This document shows, in pieces, positions 53,522 through 62,700 of a DNA stretch of 64,000 bases (position 1 is the first letter of the stretch; each line of letters starts with the position of its first letter). Position numbers and translations under genes: made by a program. Source of the DNA: Escherichia phage PECP14. The notes beneath the pieces are model-generated. The model ran no database searches and was not told where the DNA came from. It saw only the letters and a program-made list of their open reading frames with translations. The DNA lies in the sequence record OQ870555.1. One strand, given 5' to 3'.

Positions 53522-53615
53522 GGAAGATTAACCCTAAAGGTAAGGGAGCTGTTTGCTAAACAGCCAGTAGCTGTGGAGACACGGTGTGCCAGTTCGAATC
53601 TGGCATCTTCCTCCA
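53522..53615 (+). tRNA. tRNA-Ser (anticodon GCU), class II
   Basis: Acceptor GGAAGAT/ATCTTCC, anticodon arm GCTGT-TTGCTAA-ACAGC, long variable arm, T-arm GCCAG-TTCGAAT-CTGGC, CCA. Confidence 0.75.
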
Positions 53616-53620
53616 AATTT

Positions 53621-53698
53621 GGTTCTCAAGCTCATTTGGTATGAGCCGTCGCCTCATAAGCGAAAGGTAGGTAGGTTCGAATCCTCCGGGAGCCACCA
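53621..53698 (+). tRNA. tRNA with CAU anticodon (Met, fMet or Ile-lysidine), copy 1
   Basis: Acceptor GGTTCTC/GGGAGCC with G-U pairs, loop CTCATAA, T-arm GTAGG-TTCGAAT-CCTCC (one mismatch). Confidence 0.7.
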
Positions 53699-53715
53699 AT
53701 TAACTAGGAGACTAT

Positions 53716-53901
53716 ATGTCTAGATTCTATGAAATGAAGAAAGCATTAGAAGAATGTCGGTGTAAGGATTGTCATGGTGGTGGTAGGCAGGATGATGCAG
53801 AACCTGGGGATATTTTCTGTAGAGAATGGGAATGTCCTACATGTAAAGGTACTGGTATCAACCCTGAATATGCAATTTGTCTAGACATTGAGCGAGGCTA
53901 A
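53716..53901 (+). CDS. hypothetical small Cys-rich protein (possible zinc ribbon)
   Basis: 61 aa; CRCKDCHGG...CPTCKG. Confidence 0.5.
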   Translation: MSRFYEMKKALEECRCKDCHGGGRQDDAEPGDIFCREWECPTCKGTGINPEYAICLDIERG

Positions 53902-54241
53902 GATGGATATTTTTACTACTCCGGCAATAAACCTTTTAGGTGTTGGCTTGTTCCAAGCTACGGTGTATCGTACTGATGATTCTACTGATGTGGTAACGTT
54001 CATCGTACCTGAGTTCTTCCTAGAAAAGTTCTTTGAAGAGTTTGAGCAGTTCCGTGAAGAACACAATGCTCATTCCGATATGGAAGATCTAGCAGCTATG
54101 TTCCCTGTGGTTTACGGCTATATCTTTGAAGGTAATGGCCTAGATCTTAATAAATCTGAACTCGTTGAACTTAATTGGGGCATCAATTTTGAAGTTGGCT
54201 CTCCATTCCCTCGATATTTCCAGGGTTTAGAGATTCGCTAA
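53888..54241 (+). CDS. hypothetical protein
   Basis: 117 aa ORF overlapping the upstream gene by 14 nt. Confidence 0.5.
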   Translation: MSEAKMDIFTTPAINLLGVGLFQATVYRTDDSTDVVTFIVPEFFLEKFFEEFEQFREEHNAHSDMEDLAAMFPVVYGYIFEGNGLDLNKSELVELNWGINFEVGSPFPRYFQGLEIR

Positions 54242-54249
54242 GATTACAT

Positions 54250-54326
54250 GGGGGTGTAATCGAATTGGCATAGGTACTGGACTTAAAATTCAGGTTTTGT
54301 GGGTTCGAATCCCACCACCCCTACCA
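54250..54326 (+). tRNA. tRNA, anticodon loop CUUAAAA (UAA, Leu-type) with short variable arm; isotype uncertain
   Basis: Acceptor GGGGGTG/CACCCCT, anticodon stem CTGGA/TTCAG, T-arm GTGGG-TTCGAAT-CCCAC, CCA; D-arm folds poorly by hand. Confidence 0.5.
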
Positions 54327-54477
54327 AATTAAGGAAATAAAATGAAAGCTATTAAGAAAGCACTACGTAAATTTATGTACTGTCGTTTTCATAGCATCAA
54401 GACTTCAACTAATGGTACGACTTATGATCGCTATGATCCTAAGTTTGGCTTACATTCTAAATAACTGGAGATAATAA

Positions 54478-54684
54478 ATGGCTAATCCTGAAATTACTGC
54501 ACAGCGCTTTATGCTGAAAGGTATTATTGCTGAAGCAGGCATGACAGAAGAAGTTGCAGATTTTCAAAAGCAGTTCCTAAATATTCTCACTCAAGCCAAA
54601 GAGCTAGGAGAGAAAGAACATGGCGCGGCTATTATGGCAATCACATTGGTTGGGCTTGATCTGGCAGAAGAATCAGGAGTTTAA
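54478..54684 (+). CDS. hypothetical protein
   Basis: 68 aa ORF with RBS GGAGATAATAA. Confidence 0.45.
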   Translation: MANPEITAQRFMLKGIIAEAGMTEEVADFQKQFLNILTQAKELGEKEHGAAIMAITLVGLDLAEESGV

Positions 54685-54714
54685 CTCCTCCAAGCAGAAA
54701 TTTTAAAAATGTAC

Positions 54715-54744
54715 TTGCTTTTTACTTAAGATTTCTGCTATAAT
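54715..54744 (+). promoter_or_regulatory. early promoter module
   Basis: TTGCTT-18 nt-TATAAT, then ..ATAAATTGATGAAGGAGTTAACGA-ATG. Confidence 0.6.
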
Positions 54745-54774
54745 AGTTATATAAATTGATGAAGGAGTTAACGA

Positions 54775-55050
54775 ATGTCAAAACGTGTTACTGCAACTGG
54801 TGTTGAAAGTGCTGTTTGTAAATCCTGGGGTGGCTGGGAAGGTGAGATTGAATGGCTTTATTTCTACGATGTAGAACTTCTGCCGGAAGTCAAAGCTAAA
54901 TGTGTGGAAGCTGGTATGGCTCCTGATGCAAAGGCTGATATCGAAATCACCATGACTAAGCTAGAAGGTCGTGTAATTACGCTCAATGATGATTATGAAG
55001 AAGTGTTCGAGCTTCCATTCAAACTGAGTGTCACCCCTAGCTTCGAGTAA
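54775..55050 (+). CDS. hypothetical protein
   Basis: 91 aa ORF with RBS GAAGGAG. Confidence 0.5.
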   Translation: MSKRVTATGVESAVCKSWGGWEGEIEWLYFYDVELLPEVKAKCVEAGMAPDAKADIEITMTKLEGRVITLNDDYEEVFELPFKLSVTPSFE

Positions 55051-55086
55051 CTGATATAGCACTGAGCAAGTTCTTTAAAATTTGAC

Positions 55087-55115
55087 TTGCTCAGTCCTTC
55101 AAAACTTGATATAAT
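55087..55115 (+). promoter_or_regulatory. early promoter upstream of a four-tRNA cluster
   Basis: TTGACTTGCTC...TGATATAAT; -35 read as TTGCTC, 17-nt spacer. Confidence 0.6.
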
Positions 55116-55179
55116 AGTTATCTAATTTGGAAAACATATTTAAAAGTGTTTAAACTAGTATTTGAATATTTCTAAATAT

Positions 55180-55270
55180 GTTGGATTAGTATCGTAGAGG
55201 TAGCGAAGCAGACTGTAAATCTGCCGACTCGGAAGGGTCTCGGGTGGTTCGACTCCATCATCCAACACCA
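55180..55270 (+). tRNA. tRNA-Tyr (anticodon GUA), class II
   Basis: Acceptor GTTGGAT/ATCCAAC, anticodon arm GCAGA-CTGTAAA-TCTGC, long variable arm, T-loop TTCGACT, CCA. Confidence 0.75.
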
Positions 55271-55277
55271 AATTTAA

Positions 55278-55354
55278 GTCCTGTTAGACAAACTGGTAAA
55301 GTCACTACCCTTTCAAGGTAGGATTTGCGGGTTCGATCCCCGCACAGGACGCCA
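55278..55354 (+). tRNA. tRNA-Glu (anticodon UUC)
   Basis: Acceptor GTCCTGT/ACAGGAC, anticodon arm CTACC-CTTTCAA-GGTAG, T-arm GCGGG-TTCGATC-CCCGC, CCA. Confidence 0.8.
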
Positions 55355-55362
55355 AATTCTGC

Positions 55363-55439
55363 ATTCCTAGAGTGTTACTGGACAGCATGTCGGTCTCCAA
55401 AACCGTACGGTCTAGGTTCGAGTCCTAGTAGGTTTGCCA
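55363..55439 (+). tRNA. tRNA-Trp-like (anticodon CCA) with imperfect acceptor stem; possible pseudo-tRNA
   Basis: Loop CTCCAAA, T-arm CTAGG-TTCGAGT-CCTAG, encoded CCA, but the best acceptor pairing carries two U-U mismatches. Confidence 0.4.
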
Positions 55440-55445
55440 ATATTT

Positions 55446-55520
55446 GCACCTTTAGCTGAGATGGATTAGCGCTTGCCTGAAGAGCTTGAGAGGTTGGATC
55501 GTTACCAACGGGGTGCACCA
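55446..55520 (+). tRNA. tRNA-Phe-like (anticodon GAA) with atypical stems
   Basis: Acceptor GCACCTT/GGGGTGC, D-stem GCTG/TAGC, loop CTGAAGA, unusual T-loop ATCGTTA, CCA; anticodon stem has two mismatches. Confidence 0.45.
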
Positions 55521-55537
55521 ATTTGAAGGAGATGCTG

Positions 55538-55810
55538 ATGCATCCTGAAAACTTCTTTATTTACTGTGCGGATAAGTCACTGAAACGCAGAATTAACAAA
55601 GTCTATCATTATCGTGCTAGTCAACAGCCTTATGTTTATGCTTTTGATGGAGAAACCATTCCACTAGAGCAGTTGGCTTGTGATTACATGGTATTGAAGA
55701 ACTTTGATGAGACAAAGATCTCAAGCGTTCATAATCGACAGAACCCATTAACGTGGAAGTATAAGAAGAAAAAGAAAGGCATCATATTTCTGAAAAATGT
55801 AGTTGCTTAA
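55538..55810 (+). CDS. hypothetical protein
   Basis: Track ORF starts at a TTG at 55523; ATG at 55538 follows RBS GAAGGAG. Confidence 0.5.
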   Translation: MHPENFFIYCADKSLKRRINKVYHYRASQQPYVYAFDGETIPLEQLACDYMVLKNFDETKISSVHNRQNPLTWKYKKKKKGIIFLKNVVA

Positions 55811-55831
55811 CCGCTTAAAGTTCTGTATAAT
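55803..55831 (+). promoter_or_regulatory. early promoter module
   Basis: TTGCTT-17 nt-TATAAT; overlaps the stop of the upstream gene. Confidence 0.65.
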
Positions 55832-55860
55832 TATTACATAAATTGAACTGGAGAAGCAAC

Positions 55861-56085
55861 ATGACAGAACAAGAATTGAAAGAACGTAAGCTGGTAATGC
55901 TTCGCTTACTAAACATTTTCTCTGGTATGGATGGTGGTATTGACTTCGTTAATCTACGTTGCTTTGTAGAAGAAGCAGAAGGTGAGGCTATCACTAGGAT
56001 TCTTAAACATATGGGTTTGTTATTAGATGTTGCTAATGTGGCTACTCAATATAAGCTCGAAGATTTACCGGAGCGTGTTAAATGA
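55861..56085 (+). CDS. hypothetical protein
   Basis: ATG at 55861 (MTEQELKERK) with RBS GGAGAAGC. Confidence 0.5.
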   Translation: MTEQELKERKLVMLRLLNIFSGMDGGIDFVNLRCFVEEAEGEAITRILKHMGLLLDVANVATQYKLEDLPERVK

Positions 56086-56273
56086 AAATGTTAGTTAAAT
56101 TTAAGTGTTGTGGTTCTGAACATATTTTCACTCGTTATAGAGAGTTTAAGATGTGTGAGTGTGGTAAGTCAGGCTATGATGCTGGAGATGGCTATTATGC
56201 TAGATCTATAGGACATTATAAAGATCTAGAGTTTACTAATCTCGAAAAGCAAGATAAATCGACCGTTGGCTGA
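56082..56273 (+). CDS. hypothetical small protein, possible zinc ribbon
   Basis: 63 aa; CCGSEH...CECG; 3' end overlaps the tRNA-Cys 5' end. Confidence 0.45.
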   Translation: MKMLVKFKCCGSEHIFTRYREFKMCECGKSGYDAGDGYYARSIGHYKDLEFTNLEKQDKSTVG

Positions 56274-56335
56274 ATGGCTTAGGCGGAGGCCTGCAAAACC
56301 TCCTTATGTGAGTTCGAATCTCATGCGGTCGTCCA
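56260..56335 (+). tRNA. tRNA-Cys (anticodon GCA)
   Basis: Acceptor CGACCGT/GCGGTCG, loop CTGCAAA, T-arm GTGAG-TTCGAAT-CTCAT, CCA. Confidence 0.65.
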
Positions 56336-56342
56336 AATTTTA

Positions 56343-56425
56343 GGGTCGTTAGCCAAGCGGTTTGGCGGTGGACTGTTAATCCATGTCGAAAGACAACGTA
56401 GGTTCGAATCCTACACGGCCCGCCA
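56343..56425 (+). tRNA. tRNA-Asn (anticodon GUU) with an unusually long (about 13 nt) variable region
   Basis: Acceptor GGGTCGT/ACGGCCC, D-stem GCCA/TGGC, anticodon arm GTGGA-CTGTTAA-TCCAT, variable GTCGAAAGACAAC (mini-hairpin), T-arm GTAGG-TTCGAAT-CCTAC, CCA. Confidence 0.65.
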
Positions 56426-56528
56426 TATTCTGTGTAGAGTTAAGTAAACCGGTAGCCAACCAGCTATCATTACTGATATCGAATTCAGTCACAGATACCA
56501 TTTTTCATTAACAACTGAGGAAATAGAT

Positions 56529-56714
56529 ATGACAACTCGTGCAATTGCTCGACTAGAAGCTGATCGTGATAATCTGATTAATAATATTAAGGTTCGTGGT
56601 AATATTATTAAGGCTCTGAAAGCTGAACTTCTTGAAGAACTTCAAGGTCAAGTAGAGCGTCGTGAAGCTCTAAAAGAGGTTGAGGAAGCTATCGAAAAAC
56701 TCAAAACTGAGTAA
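56529..56714 (+). CDS. hypothetical coiled-coil protein
   Basis: 61 aa ORF with RBS GAGGAAATAG. Confidence 0.45.
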   Translation: MTTRAIARLEADRDNLINNIKVRGNIIKALKAELLEELQGQVERREALKEVEEAIEKLKTE

Positions 56715-56723
56715 ATAAATTAT

Positions 56724-56800
56724 GCGATCGGGGCTGGCTTGGTAATGGTACTCCCCTGTCACGGGAGAGAATGTGGGTTCGAATCCCATCGGTCGCGCCA
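56724..56800 (+). tRNA. tRNA-Asp (anticodon GUC)
   Basis: Acceptor GCGATCG/CGGTCGC, anticodon arm CTCCC-CTGTCAC-GGGAG, T-arm GTGGG-TTCGAAT-CCCAT, CCA. Confidence 0.8.
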
Positions 56801-56814
56801 ATTTAGGCTATAGT

Positions 56815-57006: not shown

Positions 57007-57007
57007 T

Positions 57008-57084
57008 GCTTCCATAGCTCAACTGGTTAGAGCTACCGCCTCTTAAGCGGAGGGTTGAAGGTTCAAGTCCTTCTGGGAGTACCA
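57008..57084 (+). tRNA. tRNA-Lys (anticodon CUU)
   Basis: Acceptor GCTTCCA/TGGGAGT (two G-U), D-stem GCTC/GAGC, loop CTCTTAA, T-arm GAAGG-TTCAAGT-CCTTC, CCA. Confidence 0.7.
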
Positions 57085-57287
57085 AACAAATAGAGTAAAG
57101 GCTACAGTAGGTGCACCCTTACGGACTGCTACACCGGACTCTATTCATTAACAAACATTCTAGCGTGGTGGAGAGGGGACACCAGCTTGCCGAGGGTAGA
57201 AGCTCGTTCGATTCGAGTGAAAGAATGGTTCTCGTAAATCCGCACAAGTGATAGCAGGTTCAAGTCCTGCCTAGATTGACTTATTAT
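57085..57287 (+). other. tRNA-like remnants / unassigned structured segment
   Basis: Two T-arm-like hairpins (GCTCG-TTCGATT-CGAGT near 57202-57218; GCAGG-TTCAAGT-CCTGC at 57254-57270) and an acceptor-like pairing ATAGAGT/ACTCTAT (57090-57146), but no complete cloverleaf or CCA in my folds. Confidence 0.35.
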
Positions 57288-57361
57288 GCGTTCGTAGTTA
57301 AAAGGTATAATTTTTGGTTGCCAACCAGAAGTTGAGGGTTCGATTCCCTCCGACCGCACCA
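57288..57361 (+). tRNA. tRNA-Gly (anticodon GCC)
   Basis: Acceptor GCGTTCG/CGACCGC, loop TTGCCAA, T-arm GAGGG-TTCGATT-CCCTC, CCA. Confidence 0.7.
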
Positions 57362-57609
57362 AATTTAGGTTTCTGCTTCCTAGAGAACGAACTCCTAGAT
57401 AAACAAGGTGATGAGTTTCCGGCCGGTTCTAGTCGCTGAAAATCCTCCCGACCAGGTAGGTGTAAGTAAACGAAAGTTTACTTATTAAGTAAGTCCGACA
57501 CATCGGCGGGTGTGTTCTAGTACTTAAAGAAGGTCTAGCAAACTTTCTCGCTAGCATGAGTTGATAGCTCGGTGACTTACCTAATAAGTAAATTTATTAA
57601 AAAATGTAG

Positions 57610-57638
57610 TTGCTATTTAGCTTAATTCTCTGTATAAT
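57610..57638 (+). promoter_or_regulatory. early promoter module upstream of tRNA-Pro / tRNA-CAU
   Basis: TTGCTA-17 nt-TATAAT. Confidence 0.65.
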
Positions 57639-57670
57639 ATATTTTATAAAGTGAGTTAACAAAGAATATT

Positions 57671-57748
57671 CTCCGTGTAGCTCAGTTTGGCCAGAGCGTT
57701 TCGTTTGGGGCGATAGGGTCGGGGGTTCAAATCCTCCCACGGAGACCA
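57671..57748 (+). tRNA. tRNA-Pro (anticodon UGG)
   Basis: Acceptor CTCCGTG/CACGGAG, D-stem GCTC/GAGC, loop TTTGGGG, T-arm GGGGG-TTCAAAT-CCTCC, CCA. Confidence 0.75.
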
Positions 57749-57754
57749 AACAAT

Positions 57755-57832
57755 TGCGGGTTAGATCTCTGGTAGAGATCGCTAGTCTCATAAGCTAGAA
57801 AGAGGTAGGTTCGATTCCTGCACCCGCTTCCA
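57755..57832 (+). tRNA. tRNA with CAU anticodon (Met, fMet or Ile-lysidine), copy 2
   Basis: D-stem GATC/GATC, anticodon arm CTAGT-CTCATAA-GCTAG, T-arm GTAGG-TTCGATT-CCTGC, CCA; first acceptor pair is a mismatch. Confidence 0.7.
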
Positions 57833-58020: not shown

Positions 58021-58099
58021 AGATCGCTAGCTCAATTGGTTTAGCAGCACCCGGCTTTTAACCGGAAGGTTCTGGGTTCGAGTCCCAGGCGGTCTACCA
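58021..58099 (+). tRNA. tRNA-Lys (anticodon UUU)
   Basis: Acceptor AGATCGC/GCGGTCT, loop CTTTTAA, T-arm CTGGG-TTCGAGT-CCCAG, CCA. Confidence 0.7.
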
Positions 58100-58641: not shown

Positions 58642-58660
58642 ATTAACTCAAAATAAGGAA

Positions 58661-59020
58661 TTGCAAATGCAATTATCAAGCAAGGTTCAAGGCTATTTCG
58701 GACATGTAACAATGGAGTTCGCTATCTCTAAAGGTTGGGACTTCGAACAAGATTTAGCTGAGTTCTACAAAGATATTGATCTGAACGTACCGTACATGGG
58801 ACTCTCAACTGGTCAAGAGATCACAGAAGCCGACGTGTTCAAGGCAAGTCAAGGTGAGGTAACACCTAGTTTTGCCGAGTTCTGGTTAGGTATCACACTG
58901 AAAGAAGATGCACCGGATAGTGGAGTACTAATGACTAGTATGCACTCTGGAAGCTCTGATTACCTTTTCGTTAGTGACGTTAAGGAAATACAAGAAATCT
59001 GCAAAAATGTACTTGCTTGA
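58661..59020 (+). CDS. hypothetical protein (TTG start per track; ATG 6 nt downstream)
   Basis: 119 aa ORF with RBS AAGGAATTG. Confidence 0.5.
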   Translation: MQMQLSSKVQGYFGHVTMEFAISKGWDFEQDLAEFYKDIDLNVPYMGLSTGQEITEADVFKASQGEVTPSFAEFWLGITLKEDAPDSGVLMTSMHSGSSDYLFVSDVKEIQEICKNVLA

Positions 59021-59041
59021 TGCTTAATTTCTTGTTATAAT
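59013..59041 (+). promoter_or_regulatory. early promoter module directing transcription into an ORF-free 0.36-kb segment
   Basis: TTGCTT-17 nt-TATAAT; overlaps the stop codon of the upstream gene. Confidence 0.6.
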
Positions 59042-59401
59042 ATTTATATAAATTGATGTGAAAATAGCTGCCTAGATATTAGGTGTATGACGTCTACACT
59101 AGCAGAGCTACCGAAAAAAGAGATCCTCAGGATAAACGCCGTAGCAAAATTAGTCTGATATCCATCAATTTAGTTCACTAAGGTATTAGCTCGACCTAGG
59201 ACTGGCTGCCAAAAAGCACGGTTGCAATTAGACCCATAATGGCGGGGGATACTTTGCAAGAAGTTCTAGATTAGTCCACTAGATTCAGCGGCAACTGAAT
59301 AGTGTATCGGGTTTGTGGAGAGCGGTTATCCTCTACTGGCTAATGTCTGAGGGTAATACGCACACCGAGCTAATAGCCTTAGTAAACTAGAAGGAATATC
59401 T

Positions 59402-59665
59402 ATGTTTGATCTTAAAGATATGGCTAAGAAACTAATGTCGCAACGTTATCAACAAAGAACCCTCCATAAACGAGTTTCCGATATGAAGAAACGTTGCAAT
59501 AATGCTAAGTATTATAATAGTCTTAATAAACTATCTGATATAGATCTTGCTAAAACTGAAGCAATATATAATCACTTAGTAGTAGAATCTGATATAGTGA
59601 ATAAAGATATTGCTAGGCTAGAAGCTCAGATTGTAGCAACTGTTCTCGATATGTATAGAGAATAA
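59402..59665 (+). CDS. hypothetical coiled-coil protein
   Basis: 87 aa ORF with RBS GAAGGAATATCT. Confidence 0.5.
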   Translation: MFDLKDMAKKLMSQRYQQRTLHKRVSDMKKRCNNAKYYNSLNKLSDIDLAKTEAIYNHLVVESDIVNKDIARLEAQIVATVLDMYRE

Positions 59666-59674
59666 ATAAATTTT

Positions 59675-59753
59675 GGGGAATGGGTCTGCATGGAGTGGAC
59701 ACCTCGCTTGCACCGAGGACATCAGAACGGTTCGATTCCGTTATTCTCCACCA
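59675..59753 (+). tRNA. tRNA-Ala (anticodon UGC)
   Basis: Acceptor GGGGAAT/ATTCTCC with G3-U70, anticodon arm CCTCG-CTTGCAC-CGAGG, T-arm AACGG-TTCGATT-CCGTT, A73, CCA. Confidence 0.75.
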
Positions 59754-59759
59754 AAATTC

Positions 59760-59835
59760 GGGGTCATAGGTTATTTGGTTAAACTTACTGCCTTGCAAGC
59801 AGTGGAACTCAGTTCAATTCTGAGTGACTCCACCA
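59760..59835 (+). tRNA. second tRNA-Ala-like (anticodon UGC), divergent sequence
   Basis: Acceptor GGGGTCA/TGACTCC also with G3-U70, anticodon arm ACTGC-CTTGCAA-GCAGT, T-arm CTCAG-TTCAATT-CTGAG, A73, CCA. Confidence 0.65.
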
Positions 59836-59854
59836 AACAAATTAAGGAAATAAT

Positions 59855-60073
59855 ATGGTATTCTTAGCAGCCTCTGTAGTTCTTGCAGCTTTAGCACTAG
59901 CTATCTATTTTAGAACTATTAAAGATTTAGCTAAAGAAAAGAAAACTTTCTTTACTGATTATTCTTGGGGCGCTCCATATACCGTCCGCTTTATCAGCTT
60001 AGAAGCTATGCTGATAATGGTATTCAGTGGTATAGGTTCCGTTGTTACAGGGTTACTATTTATTTCTAACTAA
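59855..60073 (+). CDS. hypothetical small membrane protein
   Basis: 72 aa; two hydrophobic segments; RBS AAGGAAATAAT. Confidence 0.5.
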   Translation: MVFLAASVVLAALALAIYFRTIKDLAKEKKTFFTDYSWGAPYTVRFISLEAMLIMVFSGIGSVVTGLLFISN

Positions 60074-60080
60074 ATAAAAT

Positions 60081-60161
60081 GGGGATGTGGCGAAATTGGC
60101 AGACGCGCTAGATTTAGGTTCTAGTCTTCGGGTGTGGGTTCGAGTCCCTCCATCCCTACCA
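60081..60161 (+). tRNA. tRNA-Leu (anticodon UAG)
   Basis: Acceptor GGGGATG/CATCCCT, anticodon arm CTAGA-TTTAGGT-TCTAG, about 9-nt variable region, T-loop TTCGAGT, CCA. Confidence 0.65.
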
Positions 60162-60335
60162 AACATTGGATTAACTCATGATGAAAACTCCTATAACTGA
60201 TATCTGGTTAGCTGTTAATACATTAACTAAAGAGTATGTGTTTATAGAGTATGGTCAGAGGTATGACCAAAAGATGTATAATCTCATACTTCCAGTATCC
60301 GCTAATGAAGTTTATGATTTAATCCTGAGATCTAC

Positions 60336-60426
60336 GGAAGAGCAAATCGATTAGGTGACGAAAACCACTTGGAAAGTGGCTGACTGGTAAAACGGCTTGA
60401 GAGTTCGAATCTCTCTTCTTCCGCCA
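60336..60426 (+). tRNA. tRNA-Ser (anticodon GGA), class II
   Basis: Acceptor GGAAGAG/TTCTTCC, loop TTGGAAA, long variable arm, T-arm GAGAG-TTCGAAT-CTCTC, CCA; 5' end overlaps a sub-60-aa ORF. Confidence 0.6.
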
Positions 60427-60433
60427 AACAACT

Positions 60434-60523
60434 GGAAGGTAGGACATAGTGGTATGTAACAGGTCTTGAAAACCTGCCCGCTGTAGCGATATGGTGATGG
60501 TTCGACTCCATTACCTTCCTCCA
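60434..60523 (+). tRNA. tRNA-Ser (anticodon UGA), class II
   Basis: Acceptor GGAAGGT/ACCTTCC, anticodon arm CAGGT-CTTGAAA-ACCTG, long variable arm, T-arm GATGG-TTCGACT-CCATT, CCA. Confidence 0.75.
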
Positions 60524-60541
60524 ACTAATAAGGAAAACCTT

Positions 60542-60745
60542 ATGAAACACATTGTTAAGTATACCGAAAGCGAACGTGGCTGGGGTGGTGAAATCTGGTA
60601 TCGTCCATTTGACACCGAGGCCGAAGCCTTGATGGAAGTTAATGATGTAAATAAAGATCTACCTAAAGATCATGTGCCAACATACTACATCCAAGCTGAG
60701 TATATTGGTGTTAAGGATAAGGTTCCCGAAGGTTACAAGTTTTAA
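60542..60745 (+). CDS. hypothetical protein
   Basis: Track ORF (from 60491) begins inside tRNA-Ser; ATG at 60542 (MKHIVKYTES) follows RBS AAGGAAAACC. Confidence 0.5.
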   Translation: MKHIVKYTESERGWGGEIWYRPFDTEAEALMEVNDVNKDLPKDHVPTYYIQAEYIGVKDKVPEGYKF

Positions 60746-60749
60746 ATAA

Positions 60750-61064
60750 TTCTTGAAGTATGCCGGAATCGGTAGACGGGGCTTCCTAAAGGGCGTAAGG
60801 GGAACATCCACTCCTCATAAGATACCCGAAAACGAGGCTGAGATAAATGGTCTATCTCGTGAAGGTTCAAGTCCTTCTGCTTCTTGATACATCAATGGCT
60901 CAAAGAGTAACGGTGCACCTTTCTAGAGAATTTCCTGGGCGAGAATCCAGGTGTAATCAACTAGTTGTTAGTGTGATGAGTTTCGGAGAGCCGCCACAAT
61001 TGAAGTCTTTAGAATGGGTATCGCCCTTTAGCCCCTCCGAAAGGGATAACTAGAGATTTCAATT
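60750..61064 (+). other. ORF-poor structured segment with an orphan T-arm-like hairpin and a 12-bp inverted repeat abutting tRNA-His
   Basis: GAAGG-TTCAAGT-CCTTC at 60861-60877 with no matching acceptor or CCA; arms GCCACAATTGAA (60993-61004) and TTCAATTGTGGC (61058-61069) separated by 53 nt; the 3' arm overlaps tRNA-His. Confidence 0.35.
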
Positions 61065-61141
61065 GTGGCTATATCATAATTGGTTAATGATCCTGATTGT
61101 GAATCAGGCCTATGTGGATTCGAATTCCACTAGCCACCCCA
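61065..61141 (+). tRNA. tRNA-His (anticodon GUG)
   Basis: Acceptor GTGGCTA/TAGCCAC, anticodon arm CCTGA-TTGTGAA-TCAGG, T-arm GTGGA-TTCGAAT-TCCAC, CCA. Confidence 0.8.
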
Positions 61142-61148
61142 AATATTG

Positions 61149-61222
61149 CGTCCTTATTTCAATGGAAAGAATGTAAAGCTACGAACTTTACGATCGGGGT
61201 TCGATTCCCTGAGGATGCACCA
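61149..61222 (+). tRNA. tRNA-Arg (anticodon ACG)
   Basis: Acceptor GCGTCCT/AGGATGC, anticodon arm TAAAG-CTACGAA-CTTTA, T-arm CGGGG-TTCGATT-CCCTG, CCA. Confidence 0.75.
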
Positions 61223-61246
61223 ATTAACTTATATAGGAACTAAAAT

Positions 61247-61447
61247 ATGGCTGATTTCTGCAAAGAATGCTCTATCGATATGTGGGGCAAAGATACTGGT
61301 GATCTTTCTGGTCTGATTACAGAAGCCGAAGTTAAAGAAGGCTATGGTGCTGTTGTAATCTGTGAAGGTTGTGGTATTATTCGTGTTGATCATAATGGTA
61401 AACGTCTAGAAGAACCAGATCCAATTGCCACGGTTCCTGTAGAATAA
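61247..61447 (+). CDS. hypothetical small Cys-containing protein
   Basis: 66 aa; CKEC...CEGCG; RBS ATAGGAAC. Confidence 0.5.
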   Translation: MADFCKECSIDMWGKDTGDLSGLITEAEVKEGYGAVVICEGCGIIRVDHNGKRLEEPDPIATVPVE

Positions 61448-61454
61448 AAATTAT

Positions 61455-61530
61455 TGGGATGTAGATCAATTGGCAGATCGTCGGCCTCTGACTCCGAAGG
61501 TTCCACGTTCGATCCGTGGCATCCCAGCCA
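61455..61530 (+). tRNA. tRNA-Gln (anticodon CUG)
   Basis: Acceptor TGGGATG/CATCCCA with U1-A72, loop CTCTGAC, T-arm CCACG-TTCGATC-CGTGG, CCA. Confidence 0.7.
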
Positions 61531-61536
61531 AATACT

Positions 61537-61612
61537 TGGAGAGTAGTGTAACGGTTAGCACAACGGCCTTTGACTCCGTTAATGGTAGGTTCGATTCCTC
61601 CTTCTCCAGCCA
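61537..61612 (+). tRNA. tRNA-Gln (anticodon UUG)
   Basis: Acceptor TGGAGAG/TTCTCCA with U1-A72, loop CTTTGAC, T-loop TTCGATT, CCA. Confidence 0.7.
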
Positions 61613-61618
61613 ATTTAT

Positions 61619-61693
61619 GCGTGATTAGTTCAGTGGCTAGAATAACTGGCTTCCAACCAGTAGACACGAGTTCGACTCTCGTATCCCGCACCA
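61619..61693 (+). tRNA. tRNA-Gly (anticodon UCC)
   Basis: Acceptor GCGTGAT/ATCCCGC, anticodon arm ACTGG-CTTCCAA-CCAGT, T-arm ACGAG-TTCGACT-CTCGT, CCA. Confidence 0.75.
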
Positions 61694-61709
61694 AATATAA
61701 GGAAACGTT

Positions 61710-61931
61710 ATGCACGTTTTTGAGTTTCGTAATAAAAACCCTAATAGACGAGTTTTAATTATTGGTGAAACATATCGAGCTTATGAGCAAGAAGATGGTT
61801 CGGTTTTATTAAATGATGAAAAGCAAGGCTATAGTTTTCATCCAGAAGAAACATATGAGGAATTTCGTACTAAGTTTCTTTTACCAGACTGGCTAGCAAT
61901 AGCTGAGCAAAGAGAACCCGAAGATGGCTGA
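61710..61931 (+). CDS. hypothetical protein
   Basis: 73 aa ORF with RBS AAGGAAACGTT. Confidence 0.5.
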   Translation: MHVFEFRNKNPNRRVLIIGETYRAYEQEDGSVLLNDEKQGYSFHPEETYEEFRTKFLLPDWLAIAEQREPEDG

Positions 61932-62098
61932 TAATCTAAAGCTAAAGGTAGATAAACAAATGAAGTGCGTTGAGGTTGAGTTGGGTGAAGAACGTTTAAA
62001 ACTCTCCTTCGAATTCTTACAACAGTTGGCTATGACAGTAATGTCTGATAAGTCTCCTGTATTTGAAAAAGAAATTCCGTTGAAATAACGGGTTTATT

Positions 62099-62173
62099 GC
62101 TCCTAAAGCATTGCTGGCAATGCAGTTGCCTTGTAAGCATCTGAACCGGGTTCGATTCCTGGTGGGAGCACCA
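62099..62173 (+). tRNA. tRNA-Thr (anticodon UGU)
   Basis: Acceptor GCTCCTA/TGGGAGC, loop CTTGTAA, T-arm CCGGG-TTCGATT-CCTGG, CCA; one mismatch in the anticodon stem. Confidence 0.65.
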
Positions 62174-62188
62174 AATTTAAAAATTCAT

Positions 62189-62217
62189 TTGCCTTCTCTC
62201 TTATTTCTTGTTATAAT
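62189..62217 (+). promoter_or_regulatory. early promoter module
   Basis: TTGCCT-17 nt-TATAAT, then ..TATAAATTAATGAGAGGGAAGGCAA-ATG. Confidence 0.6.
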
Positions 62218-62247
62218 ATTTATATAAATTAATGAGAGGGAAGGCAA

Positions 62248-62541
62248 ATGAAACGTTATCTTTCTGTCGTATTCCAAACGGGTGGTCAACGCTACACTTA
62301 CGAATTTCCTGAGTCTTGGAAAATCAAAGAGGGTGATCAAGTTGTTGTGCTAACACCTCGTGAAGGCTTCAAAGTAGTAACGGTTAAACAAGTATTTCCA
62401 AAAGATCACGAACCATCTAAGTCTATTAACTATAAGATGATTCATGGTCTGGTACGAAAAGTACCTAGAACAGAAGTCGAAGTAGATAAAACTGGAGAAG
62501 CTAAATACCAGTATACCTCTTACTTAGACGAAATGATGTAA
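62248..62541 (+). CDS. hypothetical protein
   Basis: 97 aa ORF downstream of a promoter module. Confidence 0.5.
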   Translation: MKRYLSVVFQTGGQRYTYEFPESWKIKEGDQVVVLTPREGFKVVTVKQVFPKDHEPSKSINYKMIHGLVRKVPRTEVEVDKTGEAKYQYTSYLDEMM

Positions 62542-62542
62542 T

Positions 62543-62618
62543 GCTCCGATAGTTCAAACGGTTAGAACAGGCGACCGATAATCATCAAATCTTGGTTCGA
62601 TCCCAAGTCGGAGTACCA
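62543..62618 (+). tRNA. tRNA-Ile-like (anticodon GAU), C at position 33 in my fold
   Basis: Acceptor GCTCCGA/TCGGAGT, loop CCGATAA, T-arm CTTGG-TTCGATC-CCAAG, CCA; anticodon stem has one mismatch. Confidence 0.55.
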
Positions 62619-62624
62619 AATTAT

Positions 62625-62700
62625 AGTTAGTTGGCAGAGTGGTTATGCACCTCCTTCATACGGAGTGACTACAGTGGTTCAAATCCACTACTAACTACTA
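62625..62700 (+). tRNA. tRNA with CAU anticodon, copy 3; 3'-CCA not encoded
   Basis: Acceptor AGTTAGT/ACTAACT, loop TTCATAC, T-arm AGTGG-TTCAAAT-CCACT; sequence after the discriminator is CTA. Confidence 0.6.

What the first reader, a model, noticed from the sequence alone, without database searches (positions are those of the whole stretch)
53522..62700. About 30-gene tRNA island with several atypical tRNAs
Hand-folding gives tRNAs for most amino acids. Oddities: three separate CAU-anticodon tRNAs (53621, 57755, 62625; the last lacks encoded CCA), consistent with initiator, elongator Met and Ile-lysidine species; two divergent tRNA-Ala(UGC)-like genes both with G3-U70 (59675, 59760); two tRNA-Gln with U1-A72; a GUU-anticodon tRNA with a 13-nt variable region (56343-56425); a UAA-anticodon tRNA with class-I architecture (54250-54326); and two tRNAs with mismatched stems (55363-55439, 55446-55520).
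Basis: seen in the sequence. Interest (0 to 1): 0.5.

Follow-up and report, generated by a model that had tools for sequence, protein, structure and literature searches.

The report
T5-like phage tRNA gene island
This is the well-known tRNA-rich region of a T5-like phage: 29 co-oriented tRNA genes covering all 20 amino acids, which supply the phage's own adaptors when the host's are scarce or destroyed. Its odd-looking tRNAs are real and conserved, not reading errors.

Summary
Positions 53522-62698 hold 29 tRNA genes, all on the + strand. A 30th, Arg(UCU), lies at 48058. Together they cover all 20 amino acids. The window is a T5-like phage (Demerecviridae, Epseptimavirus-like), 97% identical to sequenced phages that annotate the same genes. 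It is syntenic with the T5 tRNA region, which has been studied since the 1980s and was recently shown to defeat tRNA-cleaving defences (PARIS, retron Eco7, PrrC).

Every listed oddity is in the sequence:
- three CAU tRNAs, which T5 annotates as Ile2, initiator and Met; the last has lost its encoded CCA through a C-to-T change;
- two Ala(UGC) genes with G3-U70;
- a class-I-sized Leu(UAA);
- an Asn(GUU) with a 13-nt variable hairpin;
- mismatched Trp and Phe.

U1-A72 in tRNA-Gln is not odd, because E. coli tRNA-Gln has it too. The atypical tRNAs are conserved across phage genera with compensatory changes, so they are unlikely to be pseudogenes.

Class-I Leu(UAA) and long-arm Asn also recur in unrelated viral contigs. 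I additionally found C33 in Ile(GAU), no encoded G-1 in His, an A54/U58 T-loop in Phe, seven T5-type promoters, and homologues of T5's unexplained "stable RNAs". The island itself is already known. Only the purpose of the structural variants remains open.

The parts
48058..48132 (+). tRNA-Arg(UCU), outlying member of the island, preceded by the RNAX-like region
   Evidence: ARAGORN; Rfam 49.3 bits
53469..53507 (+). T5-type early promoter (A-tract, TTGCTT, 17-18 nt, TATAAT); the Ser(GCU) gene starts about 15 nt downstream
   Evidence: motif search (0.38 matches expected per shuffled window); T5 promoter P15b at the syntenic place
53522..53615 (+). tRNA-Ser(GCU), class II, U73
53621..53698 (+). 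tRNA(CAU) type A; orthologue of T5 tRNAI2(CAU), the presumed lysidine-modified AUA reader; mismatches at 27:43 and 50:64
54250..54326 (+). tRNA-Leu(UAA) with class-I architecture: 5-nt variable loop GTTTT, G1.U72, A73, Leu-type D-loop GAATTGGCA
   Evidence: (57.4 bits)
54705..54744 (+). T5-type promoter-like site (TTGCTT, 18 nt, TATAAT) ahead of ORF 54775-55050
   Evidence: read directly from the sequence
55077..55115 (+). T5-type promoter ahead of the Tyr-Glu-Trp-Phe block
   Evidence: T5 P14a at the syntenic place; a strong phage tRNA-Tyr promoter is reported in PMC11555353
55180..55270 (+). tRNA-Tyr(GUA), class II; anticodon stem-loop identical to E. coli tyrU
55278..55354 (+). tRNA-Glu(UUC)
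55363..55439 (+). tRNA-Trp(CCA) with U2.U71 and U3.U70 mismatches; A1-U72 and G73 kept
   Evidence: (36.3 bits); the cloverleaf is not the MFE fold
55446..55520 (+). tRNA-Phe(GAA) with U.U mismatches at 28:42 and 29:41 and T-loop ATCGTTA (A54/U58)
   Evidence: Rfam 33.4 bits; ARAGORN relaxed
55793..55831 (+). T5-type promoter
56260..56335 (+). tRNA-Cys(GCA), U73
56343..56425 (+). tRNA-Asn(GUU) with 13-nt variable region forming the hairpin GUC-GAAA-GAC; G73
   Evidence: (59 bits)
56428..56500 (+). Homologue of T5 RNA3 ('putative tRNA-like RNA'); ends ...ACCA
   Evidence: blastn 96% over 73 nt; T5 annotation
56724..56800 (+). tRNA-Asp(GUC)
57008..57084 (+). tRNA-Lys(CUU); absent from T5
57156..57280 (+). 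Homologue of T5 RNA2 ('tRNA-like stable RNA with unknown functions')
   Evidence: blastn 90% over 125 nt
57288..57361 (+). tRNA-Gly(GCC); absent from T5
57494..57545 (+). Partial homologue of T5 RNAIV (stable RNA, function unknown)
   Evidence: blastn 79% over 53 nt
57599..57638 (+). T5-type promoter ahead of Pro and initiator-like tRNA
   Evidence: T5 P13a at the syntenic place
57671..57748 (+). tRNA-Pro(UGG)
57755..57832 (+). tRNA(CAU) type B, initiator-like: U1.U72 mismatch, G2-C71, C3-G70, A11:U24; lacks the three G-C pairs in the anticodon stem; identical to T5 tRNAfM
58021..58099 (+). tRNA-Lys(UUU); positions 36-41 read UAACCG where the host has UAAUCA
   Evidence: AriB site from PMC12409363
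58568..58641 (+). tRNA-Val(UAC)
59003..59041 (+). T5-type promoter ahead of the RNA2H-like region
   Evidence: T5 P13b
59162..59389 (+). Homologue of T5 RNA2H (stable RNA, function unknown)
   Evidence: blastn 76-79%
59675..59753 (+). tRNA-Ala(UGC) no. 1: G3.U70, A73, 7-nt variable loop, GG at positions 8-9, unusual D-arm
   Evidence: ARAGORN; Rfam 36.3 bits
59760..59835 (+). tRNA-Ala(UGC) no. 2: G3.U70, A73; seen only in the Epseptimavirus members of the panel
   Evidence: (59.6 bits)
60081..60161 (+). tRNA-Leu(UAG) with a shortened 9-nt variable arm, G1.U72, A73
60336..60426 (+). tRNA-Ser(GGA), G73; overlaps the 3' end of ORF 60178-60354 by 19 nt
   Evidence: ARAGORN relaxed, (start off by 3 nt); Rfam weak match 60336-60422; orthologues; T5 tRNAS2(GGA)
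60434..60523 (+). tRNA-Ser(UGA), U73
   Evidence: ARAGORN; Rfam tRNA-Sec model 40.5 bits (below gathering score)
60752..60896 (+). Homologue of T5 RNA1 ('tRNA-like stable RNA'): acceptor stem, Leu-type D-arm, about 60-nt extended anticodon arm, variable hairpin, T-arm, no CCA
   Evidence: 92% identical to Klebsiella phage KpGranit; 11 of 40 pairs with compensatory changes
60897..60996 (+). Homologue of T5 RNAI (stable RNA): conserved GGCTC...GAGCC stem, then GCCA at the 3' end
   Evidence: (T5 RNAI sequence printed)
61065..61141 (+). tRNA-His(GUG): C73, but T at position -1, so no encoded G-1
61148..61222 (+). tRNA-Arg(ACG); absent from T5
61455..61530 (+). tRNA-Gln(CUG): U1-A72, G73
61537..61612 (+). 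tRNA-Gln(UUG): U1-A72, G73
61619..61693 (+). tRNA-Gly(UCC)
   Evidence: 65.5 bits
62099..62173 (+). tRNA-Thr(UGU); positions 36-41 read UAAGCA where the host has UAAUCA
62179..62217 (+). T5-type promoter
   Evidence: T5 P11
62543..62618 (+). tRNA-Ile(GAU) with C33 (anticodon loop CCGAUAA)
62625..62697 (+). tRNA(CAU) type C; orthologue of T5 tRNAM(CAU), the elongator Met; followed by CTA instead of CCA

Best explanation
**What it is.** This is the tRNA-rich region of a T5-like (Demerecviridae, Epseptimavirus-type) lytic phage. In 9.2 kb it holds 29 tRNA genes, small ORFs of unknown function, and several tRNA-like 'stable RNA' genes.

**How it is expressed (inferred from the anatomy).**
- At least seven strong T5-type sigma-70 early promoters drive it as polycistronic transcripts.
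- Neighbouring tRNAs are only 5-9 nt apart.
- 28 of the 29 genes in the island encode CCA, so host RNase P and 3' trimming should suffice to mature them.
- The CCA-less Met tRNA would need 3' trimming plus the host CCA-adding enzyme.

**What it does (shown for T5, inferred here).** Host synthetases charge the tRNAs. This gives the phage a near-complete decoding set that does two things:
- It supplies codons the AT-rich phage uses more than its host does.
- It keeps translation running when host defences cleave host tRNAs. Phage copies either carry substitutions at the nuclease site or are simply overproduced.

**The 'atypical' genes.** They are functional lineage variants, not decay products.
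- The three CAU genes are the AUA-reading Ile2, an initiator-like tRNA and the elongator Met.
- The class-I-sized UAA tRNA is a tRNA-Leu that lost its long arm but kept the features E. coli LeuRS needs: A73, G1.U72 and the Leu-type D-loop.
- The GUU tRNA keeps the AsnRS determinants (GUU, G73) and carries an added GNRA hairpin.
For: **Shown here**
- Identity and synteny with T5-like phages.
- 30 tRNA calls.
- Promoters at 53469, 55077, 55793, 57599, 59003 and 62179 match a motif with 0.38 matches expected per shuffled window. The site at 54705 was read from the sequence.
- Encoded CCA and spacer lengths.
- In 44 ORFs of the window, AUA is 11% of Ile codons, AGA 15% of Arg, CUA 16% and UUA 21% of Leu. 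GC content is 40.6%. All 20 amino acids are served.

**Conservation with compensatory changes across genera**
- Ala no. 1: the acceptor, D and T stems co-vary in Sw2, KpGranit and PM135, and G3.U70 is always kept.
- Phe: the T-stem changes GTTGG/CCAAC to GTACG/CGTAC around the same odd T-loop.
- Trp: 6:67 and 7:66 co-vary in KpGranit while the U.U pairs persist.
- Class-I Leu: 18 of 20 cloverleaf pairs show compensatory changes across 24 sequences.
- Among 63 distinct class-I UAA tRNAs from viral contigs, 62 have A73 and 43 have G1.U72. E. coli leuZ has the same two features.

**Nuclease site.** Lys(UUU) and Thr(UGU) differ from the host at position 39 of the AriB site U36AAUC|A41.

**From papers**
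- T5 Lys, Thr and Asn tRNAs resist or neutralise PARIS AriB (PMC11464382, PMC12409363).
- T5/SP15 tRNA-Tyr, expressed from a strong promoter, defeats retron Eco7, and the phage tRNA-Lys defeats PrrC (PMC11555353).
- E. coli LeuRS needs A73 and the D/T tertiary core, not the long arm (PMC9976931).
- A type I tRNA-Leu is charged by LeuRS in Streptomyces (PMC6614811).
- T5 tRNA-Phe is a PheRS substrate (PMC9976931).
Against: - Nothing here measures expression, charging or modification of this phage's tRNAs.
- The split of the two non-initiator CAU genes into Ile2 and Met rests on the T5 annotation. The only extra support is a recalled rule: 62625 shares U4-A69 and A5-U68 with E. coli tRNA-Met.
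- The initiator-like tRNA lacks the three G-C pairs normally needed for P-site selection.
- tRNA-His has no encoded G-1, which is the main HisRS determinant.
- The Trp cloverleaf is not the predicted minimum-energy fold (z = +0.3).
- T5 notes say many scaffolds (Phe, Trp, Asn, Ser2, Met, Thr and others) do not become amber suppressors. That could mean poor function, or simply anticodon-dependent charging.
- The window's Asn keeps the host-like AriB site UAAUCC, so resistance cannot be assumed for it.
- The codon analysis uses remembered E. coli values for comparison.
Confidence: 0.85

Rival explanations
1. Codon supply only. The island exists solely to match the tRNA pool to the AT-rich phage's codon usage, and the sequence peculiarities are neutral drift.
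For: - The phage is 40.6% GC and uses AUA, AGA, CUA and UUA at 11-21% of their families.
- tRNAs reading exactly these codons are present: CAU/Ile2, Arg UCU, Leu UAG and Leu UAA.
Against: - The set also duplicates tRNAs that are abundant in the host, and it covers all 20 amino acids.
- In T5 the region is dispensable on plain hosts but required on hosts with PARIS, retron Eco7 or PrrC (PMC11464382, PMC12409363, PMC11555353).
- Lys and Thr differ from the host exactly at the mapped AriB site.
- The two roles are not mutually exclusive.
Confidence: 0.3
2. The atypical genes are decaying or non-functional copies. This would cover Trp, Phe, Ala no. 1, class-I Leu(UAA), long-arm Asn and Ser(GGA). 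On this reading they are tRNA pseudogenes, or only processing signals within the transcripts.
For: - Scores are low: Trp 36.3, Phe 33.4, Ala no. 1 36.3 bits.
- Default ARAGORN misses Phe and Ser(GGA).
- The stems carry mismatches.
- Trp does not fold as a cloverleaf by energy alone.
- Tyr(GUA) and Ser(UGA) are annotated tRNA-Pseudo in one relative, and other relatives list unnamed tRNA-OTHER entries.
- T5 notes report 'does not convert into amber suppressor' for Phe, Trp, Asn and Ser2.
Against: - The same variants persist in different genera (Epseptimavirus, Sugarlandvirus, Novosibvirus). An unrelated Xanthomonas jumbo phage also carries the Phe variant. Stem changes are compensatory, and the odd features themselves are preserved.
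- Identity elements are intact: G3.U70 and A73 in Ala; A73 in Leu; GUU and G73 in Asn; A1-U72 and G73 in Trp.
- T5 tRNA-Phe is aminoacylated in vitro (PMC9976931), and T5 Asn and Thr rescue infection under PARIS (PMC12409363).
- Failure to become an amber suppressor is expected for synthetases that read the anticodon.
Confidence: 0.12
3. The long-arm GUU tRNA is a recoding tRNA. Its G73 and Ser-like GNRA variable hairpin would let SerRS charge it, so that it inserts Ser at Asn codons, as allo-tRNAs do.
For: [quoted passage not shown]
- E. coli tRNA-Ser variable arms also end in a GAAA loop (my recollection).
- Several viral long-arm GUU tRNAs have Ser-type D-arms and 4-5 bp variable stems.
Against: - In this window the extra hairpin has only 3 bp.
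- The D-arm is not Ser-type.
- The full AsnRS set (G34, U35, U36, G73) is present.
- No other Asn tRNA is encoded, so the phage would lack an Asn adaptor.
Confidence: 0.05

Closest known systems
Bacteriophage T5 tRNA gene region (the 'tRNA-rich region', TRR; NC_005859 about 28.0-41.6 kb)
   Same: - Same gene order and orientation.
- Same neighbour pairs: Ser(GCU)+CAU, Pro+CAU, Ile(GAU)+CAU, Tyr-Glu-Trp-Phe, Cys-Asn, and Gln-Gln-Gly.
- His is also retained and is identical to T5's.
- Same promoter type.
- Same stable RNAs: RNA1, RNA2, RNA3, RNAI, RNAIV, RNA2H and RNAX.
- The His and initiator-like tRNAs are 100% identical to T5's.
   Different: - The window has five tRNAs that T5 lacks: class-I Leu(UAA), Lys(CUU), Gly(GCC), a second Ala(UGC) type, and Arg(ACG).
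- It has none of T5's HNH homing endonuclease genes in the island.
- Its Asn carries the 13-nt variable arm; T5's is 78 nt with a 5-nt loop.
- Its Met gene has lost CCA.
- It has an extra 370-nt non-coding stretch after the last tRNA.
Epseptimavirus genomes (Salmonella phages Sw2, 3-29, UTK0009, JN-S202001; E. coli phage NG_S8)
   Same: The region is 95-97% identical to the closest of these (NG_S8, 3-29, Sw2). The tRNA set is the same as in Sw2, gene for gene, including the class-I Leu(UAA), the long-arm Asn, the two Ala genes and the CCA-less Met.
   Different: Only small indels and point differences. For example, A41 in Ile(GAU) creates a C.A mismatch here where Sw2 has G. UTK0009 carries a long-arm Thr(UGU) that is absent here.
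Type I (short-variable-loop) tRNA-Leu: Streptomyces coelicolor tRNALeu(CAA) and human mitochondrial tRNALeu(UUR)
   Same: A Leu anticodon on a class-I body. These are charged by LeuRS despite the missing long arm (PMC6614811, PMC9976931).
   Different: - The phage tRNA must be charged by an enterobacterial LeuRS. That enzyme is known to tolerate arm deletion only in engineered substrates.
- It keeps the E. coli tRNALeu(UAA) signature of G1.U72 and A73.
Phage T4 tRNA cluster
   Same: Clustered phage tRNAs processed by host RNase P. From memory, it includes a CAU-anticodon Ile tRNA, and some of its genes lack encoded CCA.
   Different: T4 has 8 tRNAs, not a full set. The CCA-less state is the exception here (1 of 30). 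This comparison rests on my recollection and was not tested.

Membership tests
T5-like (Demerecviridae) tRNA-rich region | Nucleotide similarity and gene order shared with T5-like phage genomes | tested here: met
   627 phage records match, and 104 cover at least 80% of the query; the best are 97% identical. Synteny with Sw2 and T5.
T5-like (Demerecviridae) tRNA-rich region | More than 20 co-oriented tRNA genes interspersed with small ORFs within about 8-10 kb | tested here: met
   29 tRNAs on the + strand in 9.2 kb. The ORFs belong to PHROG families, mostly of unknown function.
T5-like (Demerecviridae) tRNA-rich region | T5-type early promoters (A-tract, TTGCT, TATAAT, ATAAATT) | tested here: met
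   Seven in the island. The motif has 0.38 matches expected per shuffled window. They lie at the same places as T5 P11-P15.
T5-like (Demerecviridae) tRNA-rich region | Presence of the T5 'stable RNA' genes | tested here: met
   RNA1, RNA2, RNA3, RNA2H, RNAIV and RNAX homologues at 76-96% identity. RNAI shows up in a longer alignment and through its conserved ends.
T5-like (Demerecviridae) tRNA-rich region | Dispensable on plain hosts, required against tRNA-cleaving defences | not testable with these tools
   Shown for T5 and SP15 only (PMC11464382, PMC11555353, PMC12409363).
tRNA (Rfam RF00005) | Score at or above the 29-bit gathering score | tested here: met
   28 of 30 genes score 32.6-65.5 bits. 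The class II Ser(UGA) and Ser(GGA) are listed only under the related tRNA-Sec model, at 40.5 and 23.6 bits, below its 47-bit gathering score. ARAGORN calls both.
Bacterial initiator tRNA (57755) | Unpaired 1:72 position | tested here: met
   U1.U72 here, against C1.A72 in E. coli metZ. Positions 2-6 (GCGGG) are identical to metZ.
Bacterial initiator tRNA (57755) | A11:U24 in the D-stem | tested here: met
   The D-stem is GATC/GATC, so position 11 is A and position 24 is U. The rule itself is from my own knowledge.
Bacterial initiator tRNA (57755) | Three consecutive G-C pairs at 29-31:39-41 | tested here: not met
   The anticodon stem is CTAGT/GCTAG: A29-U41, G30-C40, U31.G39. The Xanthomonas phage X1 homologue does have GGG/CCC.
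Bacterial initiator tRNA (57755) | Formylation by MTF and use in initiation | not testable with these tools
   T5 annotation says 'initiator tRNA fMet'.
tRNA-Ile2 (lysidine, AUA reader) (53621) | CAU anticodon and orthology to an annotated tRNA-Ile2 | tested here: met
   Orthologue of T5 tRNAI2(CAU), next to Ser(GCU). AUA makes up 11% of Ile codons and no UAU anticodon is encoded.
tRNA-Ile2 (lysidine, AUA reader) (53621) | TilS determinants C4-G69 and C5-G68 (recalled from Ikeuchi et al. 2005) | tested here: inconclusive
   53621 has U4-A69 and C5-G68. The rival gene 62625 has U4-A69 and A5-U68, as E. coli tRNA-Met does. No isotype-specific model was available.
tRNA-Ile2 (lysidine, AUA reader) (53621) | Lysidine at position 34 | not testable with these tools
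   Needs mass spectrometry of the tRNA.
Bacterial tRNA-Leu (54250) | Long variable arm (class II) | tested here: not met
   The variable loop is 5 nt, GTTTT. The Pantoea phage AAS21 Leu(UAA), at the same place after Ser(GCU)+CAU, is class II at 86 nt.
Bacterial tRNA-Leu (54250) | A73 discriminator and a Leu-type D-loop with G18G19 | tested here: met
   A73, D-loop GAATTGGCA, and G1.U72 as in E. coli leuZ. LeuRS requirements from PMC9976931.
tRNA-Ala (59675, 59760) | G3.U70 wobble pair, plus A73 | tested here: met
   Both genes and all 11 panel orthologues keep G3.U70 and A73.
tRNA-Asn (56343) | GUU anticodon and G73 | tested here: met
   The same holds in all Demerecviridae panel orthologues and one of the two Xanthomonas phage X1 copies.
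tRNA-Asn (56343) | Class-I body (4-5 nt variable loop) | tested here: not met
   13-nt variable region with a 3-bp GAAA hairpin.
tRNA-Gln (61455, 61537) | U1-A72 and G73 | tested here: met
   Same as E. coli glnX and glnU, fetched from MG1655.
Bacterial tRNA-His (61065) | Genome-encoded G-1 opposite C73 | tested here: not met
   C73 is present, but position -1 is T here and in the seven other Demerecviridae members of the panel.

The most novel reading that the evidence does not exclude
The structural class switches may be adaptations rather than drift. They are a Leu(UAA) that has shed its long arm, an Asn that has gained a GNRA hairpin arm, C33 in Ile(GAU), the A54/U58 T-loop in Phe, and the non-G-C anticodon stem of the initiator-like tRNA. 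On this reading they are body-shape changes that let phage tRNAs escape host tRNA-targeting enzymes which recognise overall tRNA architecture, not only the anticodon-loop sequence. That would extend the current 'anticodon-loop mutation' model of phage tRNA immunity evasion.

Support is indirect. Each variant recurs in unrelated phage lineages on different sequence backbones. Long arms appear in some isotypes (Asn 10%, Ile 15%, Cys 12%) and never in others (0 of 100 Arg, 64 Gly, 49 Glu, 42 Ala, 39 Asp).

My one specific test did not support it. Long arms do not track retention of the AriB site: UC at positions 39-40 in 7 of 11 long-arm versus 45 of 113 short Asn tRNAs.
Probability: 0.2. Interest if true: 0.6.

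Novelty: already known. Interest (0 to 1): 0.3.

Why it matters
The island is a textbook example of a phage carrying its own near-complete tRNA set. It belongs to the family in which phage tRNAs were first shown to defeat tRNA-cleaving immunity (PARIS, retron Eco7, PrrC). This window adds no new kind of element, because the same genes are already deposited and annotated.

What it does offer is a compact catalogue of conserved tRNA shape variants whose purpose is untested:
- class-I Leu(UAA);
- long-arm Asn;
- C33 in Ile(GAU);
- A54/U58 T-loop in Phe;
- tRNA-His without G-1;
- an initiator-like tRNA without the G-C stack.

It also carries seven 'stable RNAs' that have been unexplained since the 1980s. 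If any of these prove to be evasion devices or decoys, they would point to which host enzymes recognise tRNA shape.

Tried and rejected
1. **Long arms versus the AriB site.** I tested whether long variable arms compensate for keeping the host-like AriB site UAAUC. The small panel suggested it. Long arms also occur in Ile, Cys, Met, Trp and Val. Rejected as a specific explanation.
2. **Generic sigma-70 and terminator scan.** It was not above shuffles: 27 promoter-like sites found against 26 expected. Only the specific T5 promoter motif is informative.
3. **Rfam at permissive E-values.** It gave no family for the non-coding gaps; the only matches there were spurious miRNA-like hits at the 62179 promoter.
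4. **Sequence identity to E. coli tRNAs.** The three E. coli CAU tRNAs do not separate Ile2 from Met (0.58-0.68 identity). Only the initiator assignment is helped.
5. **Relaxed ARAGORN with introns and tmRNA.** This produced many obvious false positives. A 'Tyr' at 27991-28064 on the minus strand lies inside coding sequence and was discarded.
6. **Literature searches.** Searches for long-arm phage tRNA-Asn or class-I phage tRNA-Leu found no description in the held library.
7. **Odd annotations in phage JN-S202001.** Its 'tRNA-TERM', 'tRNA-Val' and 'tRNA-Cys' entries are anticodons read as codons (TGA, GTA, TGC), not different isotypes.
8. **Not done.** tRNAscan-SE isotype models were not available. 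No scan of bacterial genomes was made.

Full report
**1. What is there.**
- ARAGORN at default settings tRNA genes in the window, all on the + strand. Of these, 27 lie between 53522 and 62698 and one, Arg(UCU), is at 48058.
- Rfam's tRNA model at gathering score and adds a GAA-anticodon gene at 55446-55517.
- With a slightly lower ARAGORN threshold the count in 47-64 kb is 30. This adds Phe(GAA) at 55446-55520 and Ser(GGA).
- With laxer Rfam filters the first Ala gene scores 36.3 bits. The two class II Ser genes are listed under the related tRNA-Sec model instead.
- The anticodon table covers all 20 amino acids.
- One correction: Ser(GGA) starts at 60336. GGAAGAG pairs with the 3' strand TTCTTCC, and the Rfam match begins there. 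ARAGORN's 60339 is 3 nt too far downstream. The gene overlaps the end of ORF 60178-60354.

**2. Where it comes from.**
- The 9.4-kb region matches 627 phage records. The best are E. coli phage NG_S8 and Salmonella phages 3-29 and Sw2, at 97% identity over 92-94% of the region. Divergence grades down to phage T5 itself.
- Sw2 (Demerecviridae, Epseptimavirus) annotates the same genes in the same order.
- The curated T5 record shows the same architecture, with promoters P11-P15 and eight 'stable RNAs with unknown functions'.
- The feature is the T5-type tRNA region. Azam et al. call it the 'tRNA-rich region': about 8 kb, prevalent in T5-like phages and lost in laboratory deletion mutants (PMC11555353).

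**3. The listed oddities.** A cloverleaf parse of every gene is, and ARAGORN drawings are.

*(a) Three CAU genes.*
- 53621 is the orthologue of T5 tRNAI2(CAU), which also sits next to Ser(GCU).
- 57755 is identical to T5 tRNAfM, annotated 'initiator', next to Pro.
- 62625 is the orthologue of T5 tRNAM, next to Ile(GAU).
- 57755 has a U1.U72 mismatch. Its positions 2-6 (GCGGG) are identical to E. coli metZ, and it has A11:U24. It lacks the three G-C pairs of the anticodon stem. It passes two of three initiator hallmarks.
- 62625 shares U4-A69 and A5-U68 with E. coli elongator tRNA-Met. This fits the T5 assignment, but I could not run isotype-specific models.
- 62625 is followed by CTA where T5 has CCA. 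It is the only gene of the 30 without encoded CCA.

*(b) Two Ala(UGC) genes.*
- Both have G3.U70 and A73.
- The 79-nt type (59675) also occurs in Klebsiella phage KpGranit and Proteus phage PM135. There its acceptor, D and T stems carry compensatory changes.
- The 76-nt type (59760) is seen only in the Epseptimavirus members of the panel.
- T5 and AAS21 carry a third type.

*(c) tRNA-Gln with U1-A72.* This is what E. coli glnX and glnU have. It is canonical, not atypical.

*(d) Asn(GUU).*
- The 13-nt variable region folds as GUC-GAAA-GAC within an otherwise standard cloverleaf.
- PM135 has the same arm with one more base pair.
- T5, KpGranit and AAS21 have ordinary 5-nt loops.

*(e) Leu(UAA).*
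- It is 77 nt with the 5-nt loop GTTTT. It keeps A73, G1.U72 and the D-loop GAATTGGCA.
- E. coli leuZ also has G1.U72 and A73.
- The Pantoea phage AAS21 gene at the syntenic spot is class II at 86 nt. The arm was therefore probably lost within this phage group.

*(f) Trp and Phe.*
- Trp has U2.U71 and U3.U70. KpGranit keeps both mismatches while 6:67 and 7:66 co-vary.
- Phe has U.U at 28:42 and 29:41 and the T-loop ATCGTTA.
- Phage JN-S202001 keeps that T-loop with a fully compensated T-stem.
- T5 and a Xanthomonas jumbo phage keep the mismatched anticodon stem.
- T5 tRNA-Phe is a documented PheRS substrate (PMC9976931).

**4. Are the atypical genes functional?**
- Conservation across genera, compensatory stem changes and intact identity elements argue that they are.
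- Against this are low model scores and a Trp sequence whose cloverleaf is not the minimum-energy fold.
- There are also 'pseudo' calls for Tyr and Ser(UGA) in one relative's annotation.
- T5 notes say several scaffolds do not become amber suppressors. That last point is expected where the synthetase reads the anticodon.
- I put the pseudogene reading at about 0.12, mainly for Trp.

**5. How the island works.**

*Shown here.*
- Seven T5-type promoters lie on the + strand inside the island: 53469, 54705, 55077, 55793, 57599, 59003 and 62179. The motif has 0.38 matches expected per shuffled window.
- Neighbouring tRNAs are 5-9 nt apart, and CCA is encoded in all but one of the 30 genes.
- The phage is 40.6% GC. 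It uses AUA, AGA, CUA and UUA at 11-21% of their codon families.

*Inferred.* Transcripts are polycistronic and matured by host RNase P and 3' exonucleases. The CCA-less Met tRNA would need the host CCA-adding enzyme.

*From the literature on T5.*
- PARIS AriB cuts E. coli tRNA-Lys(UUU), Thr(UGU) and Asn(GUU) between positions 40 and 41, within U36AAUC|A41. The T5 versions resist and rescue infection (PMC11464382, PMC12409363).
- Phage tRNA-Tyr expressed from a strong promoter defeats retron Eco7, and phage tRNA-Lys defeats PrrC (PMC11555353).

*In this window.*
- Lys(UUU) reads UAACCG and Thr(UGU) reads UAAGCA. Both are changed at position 39, where a U-to-A change abolishes cleavage of the E. 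coli tRNA.
- Asn reads UAAUCC, identical to the host.
- The Tyr anticodon arm is also identical to the host's.

The best-supported account is therefore a dual one: codon supply plus replacement of host tRNAs under nuclease attack. Some copies would be protected by site changes and others by abundance.

- Of 114 UAA-anticodon tRNAs carrying the GGTTCGAATCC T-arm, 68 are class-I sized. Among 63 distinct well-paired sequences, 62 have A73 and 43 have G1.U72.
- A 24-sequence alignment shows compensatory changes in 18 of 20 cloverleaf pairs.
- Of 124 Asn(GUU) matches, 11 have 11-20 nt variable arms on unrelated backbones, mostly with G73.
- Across 1338 distinct tRNAs in those contigs, long arms occur in Asn (10%), Ile (15%, mostly UAU), Cys (12%), Trp, Thr, Met and Val. 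They never occur in Arg, Gly, Glu, Ala or Asp.
- Precedents exist: type I tRNA-Leu(CAA) in Streptomyces (PMC6614811) and allo-tRNAs with long arms and non-Ser anticodons (PMC7609411).
- I found no paper in the held library describing these two variants in phages.
- My specific idea, that the extra arm compensates for keeping the AriB site, was not supported.

**7. Other things in the span.**
- The non-coding gaps are homologues of the T5 stable RNAs.
- The RNA1-like gene (60752-60896) is 92% identical to Klebsiella phage KpGranit, although little else aligns between the two genomes.
- It folds as a tRNA-like molecule: acceptor stem, Leu-type D-arm, about 60-nt extended anticodon arm, variable hairpin and T-arm. 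Eleven of 40 pairs show compensatory changes.
- Their function remains unknown.
- Ile(GAU) has C33 here and in five other panel phages.
- tRNA-His has T at position -1 throughout the family.

**8. Verdict.**
- The feature is already known and already annotated in near-identical genomes.
- Residual interest lies in the untested purpose of the conserved shape variants and the stable RNAs.

Noticed in passing
window 62543-62618: tRNA-Ile(GAU) has C at position 33 (loop CCGAUAA) instead of the near-universal U33. The same C33 occurs in Sw2, UTK0009, KpGranit, AAS21 and both Ile(GAU) genes of Xanthomonas phage X1. T5, JN-S202001 and PM135 have U33. Lys(UUU) of JN-S202001 also has C33.
   Followed up: partly
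window 61064-61141: tRNA-His has C73, but the base at -1 is T, so the G-1 that E. coli HisRS relies on is not encoded. All eight Demerecviridae panel members have T at -1. The gene is 100% identical in T5, where the scaffold is noted as an effective amber suppressor.
   Followed up: partly
window 55492-55498 (T-loop of Phe); L008:3143-3213: The T-loop ATCGTTA swaps the usual T54/A58 for A54/U58. It recurs in Phe of several T5-like phages and in an Ile(GAU) of Xanthomonas phage X1, so it is a repeated phage tRNA motif rather than a one-off defect.
   Followed up: partly
window 60752-60896 and 60897-60996: These are homologues of T5 RNA1 and RNAI, stable RNAs of unknown function. The RNA1-like gene is 92% identical to Klebsiella phage KpGranit and folds as a tRNA-Leu-like body with a roughly 60-nt extension of the anticodon arm and no CCA. 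The RNAI-like gene keeps a GGCTC/GAGCC terminal stem followed by GCCA.
   Followed up: partly
window 56428-56500, 57156-57280, 57494-57545, 59162-59389, 47424-48057: These are homologues of T5 RNA3, RNA2, RNAIV, RNA2H and RNAX at 76-96% identity. No Rfam family matches any of them. RNAX-like segments are also conserved in KpGranit and AAS21.
   Followed up: partly
window 62699-63069: A 370-nt stretch after the last tRNA has no convincing ORF. It is absent from T5, 84-91% conserved in UTK0009, and partly conserved in KpGranit and AAS21. Sw2 annotates two tiny ORFs there. It may be another non-coding RNA.
   Followed up: partly
window 57085-57155: A gap between Lys(CUU) and the RNA2-like gene contains the inverted repeat AATAGAGT...ACTCTATT. 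It did not align to any of the five panel phages compared (T5, UTK0009, KpGranit, PM135, AAS21).
   Followed up: no
L003:10550-10633 (Salmonella phage UTK0009): This relative's Thr(UGU) is 87 nt by ARAGORN, with a long variable arm (GGAGCAATCCCA) and a class-II-like D-arm. It keeps the host-like UAAUCA anticodon-stem sequence. That differs from the 75-nt Thr in the window.
   Followed up: no
IMG/VR loci L019-L250: In viral contigs, long variable arms occur in tRNAs for class-I amino acids: Asn, Ile(UAU), Cys, Trp, Thr, Met and Val. They never occur in the sampled Arg, Gly, Glu, Ala or Asp tRNAs. Some long-arm GUU tRNAs have Ser-type D-arms and G73, which raises possible dual identity.
   Followed up: partly
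L005 (Salmonella phage JN-S202001, NC_107033): The RefSeq annotation lists 'tRNA-TERM', 'tRNA-Val' and 'tRNA-Cys' at the Ser(UGA), Tyr(GUA) and Ala(UGC) positions. These are anticodons translated as if they were codons, an annotation artefact.
   Followed up: yes
search hit H6, MG065642.1: A record named Campylobacter phage A148 (host C. jejuni) is 96.8% identical to this enterobacterial T5-like island over 92% of the query. The host label looks doubtful.
   Followed up: no
window 51282-53067 and 63070-63438: The island is flanked upstream by NAD-salvage genes and downstream by a conserved small protein. In Sw2 the upstream genes are annotated as nicotinamide-nucleotide adenylyltransferase and a PnuC-like transporter. 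The downstream protein (phrog_1209) is annotated there as acetyltransferase-related with a glycine-radical signature.
   Followed up: no
window 60081-60161: Leu(UAG) has a shortened 9-nt variable arm and is 81 nt long, against 85 nt in T5 and in E. coli leuW. PM135 has a fully class-I Leu(UAG) of 78 nt. Arm shortening therefore affects more than one Leu isoacceptor in this phage family.
   Followed up: partly
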